Source: Haliotis rufescens (taxonomy: Eukaryota). From it: 64,000 nt of DNA. Shown here piece by piece: positions 10,840 through 27,449 of the stretch (the first letter of the stretch is position 1; every line of letters starts with the position of its first letter). Location of the stretch: positions 49,352,001-49,416,000 of the forward strand of contig NW_025964223.1 of the NCBI RefSeq assembly GCF_023055435.1. Reading direction: 5' to 3'. Position numbers and translations under genes: made by a program. Under the pieces are notes generated by a model that saw nothing but the letters and a program-made list of their open reading frames with translations, made no database searches and was not told where the DNA came from.

Positions 10840-12530
10840 AGTGGTAAGTTTGAGTGGTAAAAATTCACGTTAGCTACGAGAGAAGCACAGAGAGCGAATG
10901 ACACTTCCCCACAGACAGCCCGGCTGATACTCCGGAGGCGCGGACGTCGGAGGAGACACCCTGCTTGTTGTGGCTGATAGCTGCACGCTTACAAGCGCGT
11001 GTGCTTTTTCGTGTATTTGTATCCGAATAATCACTTATTAATCAAGGAAAGTTTCAATTTCAACAATACAGTTAGGTAGTAAAAACATTTGGCTACATTT
11101 CGGTTACAATAGCAACGCTCACGGGTGAAGTTCAAAGCCACACGTGCTGTTTCCAATGAAGCGACCCAGTCTAAAATGTAGACATCGCTACTTTCAAAAG
11201 CACATTTTTAGCCTTGAGACTCAAGTTTATGCATTTTAAACGTTGCCTGTCAATTCTCAATATATCTAACTATGAAAGTAAAACACAACACTCATCAGTA
11301 TTGCCTATGATAAGCTAGAACAAGCGTTCAAACAACGACAATGAAGCACGTTTTTCTGACGACTTCGCCATTATGCAACAGAAAACATTTGACACTATAT
11401 TTCTGGAGACATAATTTTGGTCACTTCAGTTAGAGTTGAAACTAACTTTGTCATAACAAGTAAGTAACGGGGATTTTACTTTCAGGAAAACAGTCTAGTA
11501 AGACGAGGATCTCGGGACACAAGCAGCTAGGGCGCGAAGCCCCGAACAGTAACATATATACATAGGTGTTTAGATCACTCGATCGGTCGTCACAGATTAA
11601 GTCTTTTTGCCTGTCTTAATAGCACGATATTAGTAGGGGTCTTCGTCGTTTGGATGTTAATATTACCAGAACAATATAGGCTACAATGCATCAACGAAAA
11701 GTGAATGTTTCATACGAAAGGCCAGATCGAGTGAGCGAGTGTGCCGGGCCTCGTGTTAATCAGTGATCACATGTTTTTACAACGGCTAGATTTTAATCCC
11801 TGTAAATATACATCATAAATCAACAAACACAACATGTCTACTGAACCCGCTGAAAACGCGAGCATGCTGTTTTCATGGCAATGTCTGTTTACCAATGTGC
11901 GGTGTCTATATGTAGCTAAAGTTTGCCTACAGTAGTAGTAGTAGTATTATAGATTTTACGACCGCTTCAGCCGTTGGCTATTTCGCAGTCGGGGTCAGAC
12001 GGGTTTAACAATAATAAATAATAGTGGGTAATACATAAGTAATCGGCTGGCCCAAAAAAATGTAAGTTTAGGGGGGTTAAAGAAGAAAGAAATATAGTAA
12101 AGGGGTGTGAAGGGAAAAGAAGTTTAGCAGTAGTAATGTAGAGCTGAGAGAAACCTAATCTAAGGGAAGTAACTAGTGCAGAGACTTGATATAATATAAA
12201 ATCAGTTAAGCTGATATGCTAAATAATAATATGTATTATAAATGAAAAATAACAGTGGGGAAGGTGAAAAACCTATCATAAAAAGTGTGGACTTACTGGC
12301 TGGGGTAGGGAGTCAGGAGAGGGGGGGGTGGGTATAGGCCGTGCGCGTGGGAGCTGAGCTTGGGTTGGTGGCTGGTTGAACGGTCATATTTATTAGAGTA
12401 TGGATATGGGCGAATTTGTCGCGCGGACGTCGGAGAAGTCGGTCCGCGCTGAGAATTTGGATCCCGATCCTAAATTGTAAATGTGTGGGTTTTAGGCATA
12501 GCGTTTATGCTGTACTTTGTTGGGATTTTC

Positions 12531-13802
12531 CTAAAGTTTGCTTATTAGATTTGTAGTTTTAAGGAATGTAGCTATATGGGTAAATTTAGTGGTATGGTTA
12601 AAGGGATCTAGAAGGAGTTGGATGTTGTTTTTAAGCTGTGGGGGGAGAGAGTTGTAAAGTTGTGTTTGTTGTTGTTTATATTGTGAACAGTGGTTGAATA
12701 TATGGTCTAGTGTTTCAGGTGTATTGCAGTGAATGCAGTTTGGATGTGGGTGTCTTTTTTGTTTGTAGAGTGTCTCGTTTAGATTAGTTTGGCCGCTTAG
12801 CATTCTATTAATGACTTTATCTGCTAAAATGGACTTTGTGAAGTTTCGACACTTAATGACTGGTTTATTAAAGAGGGATTTTGTCAGGATTGACTTACAA
12901 TTTTGAATATTAATTTTGAAATTTTGAGATAATGTGTTTCTTTTGATTAATGATTTTATCTCGGCTTTACTGGTGGTGAATTCAATACTTGGTGATGGTT
13001 GGGTGGTGGCTAATTTTGCTGCTGTGTCTGCTAATTGGTTGCCTGTTATGCCAGCGTGTGCAGGTGCCCATAAGAGAGTTATTGTTTTGTTTGATTGTAT
13101 GAGTTTTGTGTGAATGTCTATGATATTGTTGATAATGTCTTGCCTTGATTTCGATTGTTTGTTATGAATTTGGGTTAGTGCACCTAATGAGTCTGAAATT
13201 ATAAGGAAGTTAGTGTCATTGGATATTTTTATATAGTGATATGCACATTGTATAGCCAGTAATTCAGCTGTGGTGGTATGTGTGTAGTTGGTATAGTGGA
13301 AGTTTGTGGTGATTGGTGTAGGTTGTGTGATCTGTAGGCCTAGTCCTGTTATGTCATTGTTAGTCTGTGATGCATCGGTATAGATATGGGTGTGGTTGGG
13401 CCAGTTTTGATGTATGTAGTTATTAGATATTTCCTTTTTATCAAGATTTTTAGGGTCAGGATGTGAGATGAATGTTTTGTGGAGTGAGAGGTCTGTTTCA
13501 GGGGGGGGTTTGTCATTTATGTATATGTTTTGGGGGCTTATGTGTTTGATGTTTTCTAACTGATGTATTCTTAGGAGTTTGTAGAGATGTGTAAGATAGG
13601 GGGCTAGGGTATGATTGTTTTTGAATTTCTTTAAGGTTGCAGGTCTAAGGTTGTTGTATTTAGTGATAATTTGTTTAAGGATGGGGTTTTGTTGGGCCCC
13701 AGCCCAGTAATTAAGAATGGTTTGGTTGCGGCGGAGTTGAATGGAGGTGGTTCCTGATAGAAGCTGAAGGGTATTTAGGGCTGTACCGGTTCTGGTACCC
13801 AG
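12531..13802 (-). pseudogene. Family C ORF2, C-terminal half (RNase H + CCHC)
   Basis: Manual translation gives IYTDAS, LWAPAHAGITGNQLAD and CIHC..H..C. Confidence 0.85.
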
Positions 13803-14065
13803 TTTTACTTACTTATATTAGGGGATTTTACGTGCGCTTTCCGACTGGAGCGTATTTCGCACACGGGCCCGGCCGGGCCATTTAGTGATATAAAAGGGGA
13901 AGCGAGAAGAGTGCAACCAAGGAGGGGGGTTTAGTGGTTGCTTATATAAAGTTTTGAAATTTTGAGATTCGGAAGACATGCCTTGGGGGAGTGGTTGGGA
14001 CTAAGGGAGTGTGTGGGGGTGAGTTGTTGTTTTTAGATGTTTAGTGTTGGTGGTTTAGTGAATTT

Positions 14066-26400: not shown

Positions 26401-27173
26401 CTCAATCCTTCCGACTCCCAAACAACCAATCCATCTTCACCGCAGAACTCATGGGTATCGCCACGGCGCTCCACAGCCATCACACTAAAAACCAAAAAAA
26501 AATCTTAATACTCTCAGACTCACTAAGTGGACTTCAGGCCCTCCAAAACAAAAACACCAAAAACCGCCCCAAATTAATAAACCAAATTCTCAAAAGCGTA
26601 AACAAACTAACAGAGGCAGGCAAAAACATACAACTTATCTGGATACCAGCTCACGTAGGAATATACGGGAATGAAAACGCAGACAGAGCCGCAAAACAAT
26701 CCCTAAATATACCAGACATAAGCCTTAAGCTACCAATATCTAAAGCAGAGATCAAAAGTATAAACAAACGTAAAATCACCCAAAAATGGCATAACCTCTA
26801 TCAAAACACAAAAACCCAAATCTTAAAAATCCTCAAAAAACCCCTTACCAAACCAAAAATCCTCCATCCCTCCAAAAAAATCGATAGAATAATCACCAAA
26901 CTCCAAACAGGACACACCAAACTAAATAACCACCTTCTAAAACTAAAAAAACACGCAAACGGGAAGTGCCCACACTGCACTCACCCAGAAACAATAGACC
27001 ACGTACTACTACATTGCACCCACTACCTCACCCAACGTACAACATTACAAACCAACCTAAATCCAAATAAAGCTCTTACCTTAGAAGCAATCCTTAACCC
27101 CCAAAATAAAATAGAAAACTTCAAAGCCCTAGGCATTTACCTAACCAAAACAGACCTAATTAACCGTATTTAA
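23411..27173 (+). pseudogene. Family A' ORF2 (APE-RT-RNase H), frameshift in a homopolymer near 24810-24825
   Basis: The 471-aa and 726-aa ORFs are colinear with family A ORF2. Confidence 0.9.
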
Positions 27174-27449
27174 AACTTCACTAAACCACCAACACTAAAC
27201 ATCTAAAAACAACAACTCACCCCCACACACTCCCTTAGTCCCAACCACTCCCCCAAGGCATGTCTTCCAAATCTCAAAATTTCAAAACTTTATATAAGCA
27301 ACCACTAAACCCCCCTCCTTGGTTGCACTCTTCTCGCTTCCCCTTTTATATCACTAAATGGCCCGGCCGGGCCCGTGTGCGAAATACGCTCCAGTCGGAA
27401 AGCGCACGTAAAATCCCCTAATATAAGTAAGTAAGTAAGTACAAGCATT

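What the first reader, a model, noticed from the sequence alone, without database searches (positions are those of the whole stretch)
11928..27449. Head-to-head fusion of two different LINEs with a 3' tail at each side of one target site
Seen: the native site is gtttgcc-gat-aagcatt-5S. Here gtttgcc is followed by the tail of family C (- strand), and aagcatt is preceded by the tail of family A' (+ strand). The two 5'-truncated bodies meet directly at ~21830 with no host DNA, and only 3 target nt are replaced. The sequence taca flanks both ends. Inference: both strands of one break may have been primed on two different retrotransposon RNAs (twin priming in trans). Alternatively, two near-identical-site insertions in different units were joined by a deletion, which would still imply a hotspot.
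Basis: partly seen in the sequence, partly recalled or inferred. Interest (0 to 1): 0.7.

Follow-up and report, generated by a model that had tools for sequence, protein, structure and literature searches.

The report
Two-tailed LINE pair at 5S hotspot
Two distantly related jumping genes (LINEs) sit head to head, tails outward, with the same four bases at both ends, at an often-hit landing spot just ahead of a 5S RNA gene, likely because the two cut ends of one DNA break each began copying a different RNA; this was proposed for human LINE-1, and here it is one case not yet confirmed by reads.

Summary
The two-tailed composite is in the assembly; two details were wrong. The left body is family C (3' 3.7 of 6.85 kb) split by a later full-length LINE (13803-20019, 10-nt TSD). 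No three bases are replaced: the commonest empty site is gccGACaagc (83 of 104), and both ends read taca, a likely 2-4-nt target duplication with a T at -10 found in 0 of 104 empty sites. C joins A' at a 3-nt microhomology (21835-21837) with no host DNA. A' ends at 5S -9, a base used by 7 of 111 units, 22 nt behind a TATA-like box. C normally inserts facing away from a TATA at the same distance (7 of 19; 0 of 19 reversed). Here it faces backwards, about where the second-strand cut falls. Best reading: one break, two RNAs ('dual priming'), 0.5. Sequential hits on one unit plus deletion, 0.33; two units joined, 0.12; misassembly, 0.05. No contig bridged the junctions (4 runs each); none of 8 other head-to-head pairs matched. 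Two-RNA priming is published for mammalian L1; new here would be tail priming of two autonomous families. The scan noted the start-site targeting before in this genome.

The parts
10748..11927 (+). Left flank: H1 5' part and spacer of a 3.0-kb H1-5S tandem unit (unit positions 1812-2991); this unit has lost about 720 nt of H1 at 10742/10748
11907..11912 (+). TATA-like tatatg, starting 22 nt upstream of the -9 insertion point; kept on the left side
11928..11931 (+). taca, left copy of the likely 2-4-nt target duplication (5S -10 to -7; G>T at -10)
11932..13802 (-). Family C LINE, 3' part with (TAC)n tail, RNase H and C-terminal zinc-knuckle-like motif (C_full 4973-6853)
13803..20019 (-). Later, full-length A-type LINE nested in C (ORF1 with CCHC-like knuckles; open 1268-aa APE-RT-RNase H frame); TSD tggtacccag at 13793-13802 and 20020-20029
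20020..21837 (-). Family C LINE, RT part, open frame, 5'-truncated at C_full 3165
21835..21837 (.). Head-to-head junction, 3-nt microhomology agt shared by C and A', no host DNA
21835..27439 (+). Family A' LINE, lacking its first 625 nt; APE-RT-RNase H; private 5-nt deletion near 22225 and extra A near 24808; (TAAG)n tail
27440..27443 (+). taca, right copy of the likely target duplication; -9 (27441) is the hotspot base
27450..27568 (+). 5S rRNA gene (Rfam RF00001, 107.5 bits)

Best explanation
The composite likely arose in one event in which two different LINE particles used the two ends of one staggered break at the 5S -9 hotspot ('dual priming'). Shown: the anatomy, the hotspot, C's usual geometry, the shared taca and the 3-nt junction. 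Inferred steps: (1) both particles dock at the TATA/TFIIIB site, since both families land about 22 nt behind TATA boxes; (2) the bottom-strand nick at -9/-10 primes the A' RNA tail, as in 6 sibling insertions; (3) the top-strand nick at -7/-8 leaves the only free 3' end, which primes the C RNA at its own tail, so C faces backwards; (4) the two cDNAs (5.6 and 3.7 kb) are joined at agt, which leaves a 2-4-nt duplication; (5) later a full-length A-type LINE lands inside C.
For: Hotspot: 7 insertions end at -9 among 111 5S starts, and the 6 others all face with 5S. In 5 of those 6 the top-strand cut lies between -6 and -1 (TSD 4-9 nt), next to C's junction at -8/-7. C habit: TATA starts 21-22 nt upstream in 7 of 19 copies with a TSD call and in 0 of 19 reversed controls (p=0.008; two share one flank). 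The window's C has no TATA in its own direction. One pre-insertion unit: C at -8 on both ends against T in 9 of 9 local empty sites; T at -10 in 0 of 104 empty sites; TAAG tails ending in T/TA end on target sequence in 10 of 10 cases with a TSD call (of 23 such tails; includes duplicates; the search favours overlap). Ages are compatible with one time: private substitutions C 8 of 3687, A' 5 of 5606, p=0.15. A uniform chance that one reverse nick falls in -12..0 of a unit is 0.4%. Precedent in L1: PMC2837659, PMC4476161, PMC11702581.
Against: The duplication (2-4 nt) is shorter than these elements' usual 9-13 nt, and twin-primed L1 insertions keep full-length TSDs (PMC11702581). It needs a G>T change at -10 seen in no intact unit. 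None of 8 other head-to-head pairs examined is a TSD-flanked direct join. Re-use of one site by a second family is common here (L130, L132, L070, stack at 66562), and one other -9 insertion carries an 897-nt leftward deletion, so every step of the sequential route exists. The age test cannot tell orders apart: the nested A, which must be younger than C, has 10 of 6202. No listed contig bridges the junctions.
Confidence: 0.5

Rival explanations
1. Two successive insertions hit the same unit. Either A' came first at -9, and C was then primed on the top-strand nick in the left TSD copy, where the TATA still lies 22 nt upstream; or C came first and A' followed at -9. The second event deleted the rest of the target copy and part of the first element, joining at agt.
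For: Same-site stacking of different families with a TSD spacer in L130, L132, L070 and B2 at 66562. Insertion-linked deletions of 4, 18, 66 and 897 nt among 20 array events listed. It explains the shared taca equally well.
Against: The same-site stacks listed are head to tail and keep a TSD spacer. 0 of 19 C copies face a TATA, and no other backward insertion lies at -10..0 among 111 5S starts. It needs three separate steps: a backward C, a second hit and a deletion.
Confidence: 0.33
2. Insertions in two different units (or on two chromatids) were joined, by a later deletion or by two synchronous insertions resolving together as in L1 translocation bridges.
For: Deletions are frequent in this part of the array (10742/10748, 82332, 91069). 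L150 is a direct B2(-)/B2(+) join between two inverted copies of a 122-nt flank. Two full-length LINEs lie head to head 70 nt apart on C1. Two-tailed bridges are described in bioRxiv 2024.08.27.596794. C at -8 could be an ancestral base kept beside both insertions.
Against: It still needs a backward C within a few bases of -9. Both ends likely carry the private T at -10. Joining the array's known reverse site (-44) to -9 would delete the TATA, which is kept here.
Confidence: 0.12
3. An assembly error joined two repeat copies.
For: No listed contig piece bridges the inner or left junction in 4 runs each.
Against: C and A' share only short 67-68% matches and a 25-nt end motif, too little for an overlap join. 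Both halves carry private changes, the nested TSD is clean, and the contig is 63 Mb. Logan contigs drop rare forms, and the runs may come from other individuals.
Confidence: 0.05

Closest known systems
'Dual priming' of L1 (Meyer et al. 2010, PMC2837659; abstract and passages seen)
   Same: Two RNAs primed at their 3' tails on the bottom- and top-strand nicks of one site, giving opposed copies inside one TSD. The paper expects microhomology at the inner junction.
   Different: There it is a hypothesis that the authors could not tell from twin priming: the second piece is only poly(T), TSDs are 7-20 nt, all primate L1. Here both pieces are kilobases long and come from different families (C against A-type ORF2 46% identical), so one RNA cannot explain them; the TSD is only 2-4 nt.
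Inverted snRNA/L1 and other RNA/L1 chimeras by twin priming on a second RNA (Doucet 2015, PMC4476161; Law 2026-type census PMC13174262; passages seen) and two-transcript insertions in cultured cells (PMC11702581; passages seen)
   Same: Two RNAs in opposite orientation at one site, joined by end joining or microhomology.
   Different: In the snRNA cases the second RNA is a passive cellular RNA, primed internally and cut at its 3' end. Here it is an autonomous LINE primed at its own tail, in a non-mammalian RNase H-bearing LINE group and in an inherited genome.
Two-tailed L1 bridges from synchronous insertions (Zumalave 2024, bioRxiv 10.1101/2024.08.27.596794; passages seen)
   Same: Two 5'-truncated elements in inverted orientation, joined at their 5' breakpoints, with a tail at each end.
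   Different: Those join two distant loci (translocation or inversion, heteroduplication). Here both ends appear to come from one site.
Pol III-start-targeting retroelements: Ty3, Tj1, Dictyostelium TRE5 and NLTR-A (review PMC5911963; passages seen)
   Same: Fixed insertion distance from a 5S or tRNA start; TFIIIB is the known guide for Ty3, and TRE5 ORF1 binds TFIIIB proteins.
   Different: Those are LTR elements or L1-clade elements. Here several RNase H-bearing LINE families share the site and also land behind dispersed TATA boxes. Binding to TBP or TFIIIB is inferred, not tested.

Membership tests
Dual priming (two-RNA twin priming) | Two pieces from different RNAs in opposite orientation | tested here: met
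   C (-) and A' (+) each match separate full-length families at 98-99%
Dual priming (two-RNA twin priming) | Each piece begins at its RNA's 3' tail at one end of the target | tested here: met
   (TAC)n and (TAAG)n tails of the same form as in sibling copies
Dual priming (two-RNA twin priming) | One TSD flanks the whole composite | tested here: inconclusive
   taca at both ends, 2-4 nt, needs one substitution; below the 6-nt filter of PMC2837659 and the usual 9-13 nt here; a 4-nt TSD exists at the same site
Dual priming (two-RNA twin priming) | Inner junction without host DNA, with microhomology or blunt | tested here: met
   3-nt microhomology; about 5% expected by chance
Dual priming (two-RNA twin priming) | Primary nick at the element's preferred site | tested here: met
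   A' ends at -9, used in 7 of 111 units
Dual priming (two-RNA twin priming) | Both copies made in one event | tested here: inconclusive
   Private substitutions 8 of 3687 against 5 of 5606, p=0.15; resolution too low; no intermediate allele in this assembly
Two-locus synchronous bridge or deletion between units | The two flanks come from different target sites | tested here: inconclusive
   Both flanks belong to the local haplogroup and share C at -8 and likely T at -10, which points to one site; units are too alike to phase
I-group LINE (definition recalled, from no call) | ORF2 with APE endonuclease, RT and RNase H | tested here: met
   Pfam PF14529/PF03372, PF00078, PF00075 in A' and the nested A; RT and RNase H in C, whose endonuclease part is truncated here and was not scanned in a full copy
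I-group LINE (definition recalled, from no call) | ORF1 with CCHC-type knuckles; 3' tail of short tandem repeats | tested here: met
   Motifs read by eye in the ORF1 of the nested A; tails
I-group LINE (definition recalled, from no call) | RT phylogeny placing it in a named clade (I, Nimb, Ingi or other) | not tested
   No tree with labelled reference RTs was built

The most novel reading that the evidence does not exclude
LINEs of this group are tethered to the TATA/TBP complex, so particles of different families meet at one promoter and can share one break: one primes on the first nick and the other, at its own tail, on the second. This would be a natural, inherited case of dual priming between two autonomous LINE families, and would suggest that second-strand handling can be done by a second particle with its own RNA.
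Probability: 0.4. Interest if true: 0.7.

Novelty: new variant of a known kind. Interest (0 to 1): 0.45.

Why it matters
How the second strand is cut and what uses its 3' end is an open step for APE-type LINEs. Meyer et al. could not separate dual from twin priming because both pieces could come from one RNA. Here they cannot, so the only question left is one event or two, and population long reads can answer it. A hotspot fixed to one base and shared by several young families would also make the test easy: amplify across 5S -9 and count two-tailed products. As it stands it is one dead composite, so the weight is limited.

Tried and rejected
An intact empty allele with T at -10: none in G000 or among 104 empty sites. 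Read support: only Logan contigs were on offer; no listed piece bridged either junction, which carries little weight either way. Dating by private substitutions: no resolution. Idea that A' or C is 5S-specific: rejected; A-type copies hit many unit positions and 155 tails lie genome-wide; C is dispersed, and Rfam found no RNA gene in 20 loci (19 C flanks and L150) or 8 others. Idea that each end began with three bases of the other RNA's tail: fits the letters but needs two extra template jumps; set aside for the simpler target duplication. Idea that A' is nested in C and the right side was lost: rejected, because the A' tail sits on the 5S hotspot, not on C sequence. Search for a second case: tails were listed only in part (100 of 4247, 27 of 27, 100 of 155, 100 of 955), so a genome-wide pairing is still open. 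Eight opposed pairs picked from these lists were examined: one direct join with inverted flanks, the rest nested or separated by other DNA. The 'comp' row was entered against the gat allele and is not used. Paper searches: 'dual priming' + 'retrotransposition' gave 1 paper; searches listed no report, by title or abstract start, of a two-family two-tailed LINE at one site. No supplements were read; Fig. S7 of PMC11702581 and the supplements of bioRxiv 2024.08.27.596794 may hold two-tailed single-site L1 cases.

Full report
Setting. The window is G000:C445:49352001-49416000. It lies in a tandem array of 3.0-kb units, each with a 5S rRNA gene (+) and a histone H1 gene (-). I mapped 584 kb around it and found 111 5S starts; no 5S start lies in the next 60 kb. 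Positions below 1 or above 64000 extend the window's numbering. The array is full of LINEs with APE endonuclease, RT and RNase H. Family labels A, A', A2, B, B2, C, C2 and D are working names.

Anatomy. From left to right: unit spacer ending gtttgcc; taca (11928-11931); C tail and 3' part (11932-13802, -); a full-length A-type LINE (13803-20019, -) with the TSD tggtacccag; the C RT part (20020-21837, -); A' (21835-27439, +); taca (27440-27443); agcatt; 5S. Full C is 6.85 kb and the window keeps 3165-6853; full A' is 6.24 kb and the window keeps 626 onward. The two share agt at the junction, with no host base. Of 40 scored hits only the window spans it. C and the A group are distant: 46% ORF2 identity between the C part and the nested A, and only short 67-68% DNA matches between C and A'. 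One RNA cannot give both halves.

Target. Of 104 empty sites, 83 read gccgacaagcatt and 10 gccgataagcatt; contigs from 4 runs follow the window to 11931 and go on into agcatt-5S. So the ends overlap by 2-4 nt. Both carry C at -8, while the 9 empty sites of the local block carry T and the flanks belong to that block. The left end has T at -10, seen in 0 of 104 empty sites and in no intact allele of G000. The right-hand T could be tail, but tails ending in T or TA ended on target sequence in 10 of 10 cases with a TSD call (23 of 68 tails end so; duplicates included; the search favours overlap). I read taca as a short duplication of one variant unit. Against this, C at -8 is the majority and perhaps ancestral base, and could have been kept beside two separate insertions.

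Hotspot. Seven insertions end at 5S -9, all in this array. The six others face with 5S and belong to B2, C2 and A-type families; five have TSDs of 7, 9, 4, 9 and 9 nt and one has an 897-nt leftward deletion. A TATA-like tatatg starts 22 nt upstream. Dispersed C copies show the same geometry: TATA 21-22 nt upstream in 7 of 19 copies with a TSD call, 0 of 19 in the reversed control (p=0.008; 7 of 26 loci gave no call, some calls come from repeats, two share a flank). This agrees with earlier, unreviewed scan notes on start-site targeting in this genome (e1-8652691, e1-9163106), which prompted the test. The window's C has no TATA in its own direction; its tail lies 1-2 nt short of the range of top-strand cuts at this site (-6 to -1).

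Mechanism. Dual priming explains in one step C's position, its backward orientation, the missing host DNA, the microhomology and the shared taca. Docking of both particles at TBP/TFIIIB is inferred, by analogy with Ty3 and TRE5 (PMC5911963, passages). Its weak points are the short duplication, against 9-13 nt in most siblings and the full TSDs kept in twin-primed L1 (PMC11702581, passages), and the lack of a second case. The sequential route is well supplied with parts: different families stack at one site with a TSD spacer (L130, L132, L070; 66562), and 4 of the 20 array events listed carry deletions. But those stacks are head to tail. Private substitutions (C 8 of 3687, A' 5 of 5606, p=0.15; nested A 10 of 6202) neither reject one date nor give an order; A' also has two private indels. 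Joining of two units is possible, since L150 is a direct B2/B2 join between inverted flank copies, but it fits the shared bases less well. My weights, which are judgement and not computed, are 0.50, 0.33, 0.12, and 0.05 for misassembly.

Checks that failed or stayed open. No listed contig piece bridged the inner junction (runs X1, X3, X9, X8) or the left junction (X10, X7, X2, X13); only contigs were available and they drop rare forms. Eight opposed pairs taken from partial tail lists gave no TSD-flanked direct join.

Known work. Meyer 2010 proposed dual priming and could not tell it from twin priming (PMC2837659; abstract and passages). Inverted snRNA/L1 and other RNA/L1 chimeras are ascribed to priming on a second RNA (PMC4476161, PMC13174262; passages). 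Nine two-transcript insertions, some in opposite orientation, were seen in cultured cells (PMC11702581; passages). Two-tailed bridges join two loci in tumours (bioRxiv 2024.08.27.596794; passages). Nam 2022 (bioRxiv 2022.05.18.492429; passages and section 8) describes no such case in what I read. Earlier scan notes on other genomes record LINE-plus-small-RNA versions. My searches listed no two-family, two-tailed LINE at one site, judged from titles, abstract starts and the passages named; supplements were not read. The I-group label rests on domain layout and a recalled definition.

Verdict. A real-looking, single, dead composite; a new variant of a known mechanism if it is one event. Interest 0.45.

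Noticed in passing
G000:C445, extended window coordinates 366586-371369 (L118): An A-type insertion at 5S -9 with an 897-nt leftward deletion carries a tailless, inverted 1.65-kb piece of family A2 (557-2209, 99.9% identical) 115 nt from its 3' end, with no TSD; possibly a second two-template event.
   Followed up: partly
L150:2807-5413 (G000:C1:34192307-34194913): Direct head-to-head B2(-)/B2(+) join; both tails run into inverted copies of one 122-nt flank; the halves differ by 2.4% and the flanks by 2.8%; a ~320-nt element interrupts the right tail.
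   Followed up: partly
window 60294-66509 and extended 134846-140990: Two different families (A, B) insert on the - strand at 5S -44 with the same 11-nt TSD, about 20 nt behind the same TATA-like element read backwards; the box may guide in both directions.
   Followed up: partly
L143, L165, L169, L185 (family C2 near position 4750): A-type LINEs insert repeatedly antisense into family C2 at about 4750, once with a clear TSD; an internal antisense start site is possible.
   Followed up: no
window 46824-55404: Chromodomain Gypsy-type LTR element with 582-nt LTRs (99.7% alike) inserted about 11 nt inside a 5S gene, short TSD around tacca.
   Followed up: no
extended 66563-81397: Stack of four B2 copies at 5S -9, each separated by the 7-nt target copy ataagca; three share one 5' end and probably arose by tandem duplication.
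   Followed up: partly
window 5204-8644, 41344-45749, 57383-59300 and extended 148278-216904: Insertions of families D, B and A' cluster at unit positions 1907-1975, around the H1 start, all facing with H1.
   Followed up: no
L166-L167 (G000:C1, about 42415776-42415846): Two full-length LINEs lie head to head with only about 70 nt of other DNA between their 5' ends.
   Followed up: no
L176-L180 (G000:C2:11419900-11468000): A 6.36-kb block made largely of LINE pieces is repeated in tandem about eight times.
   Followed up: partly
window 10742/10748: The unit left of the composite lacks about 720 nt of H1, including its 3' half and stem-loop.
   Followed up: no
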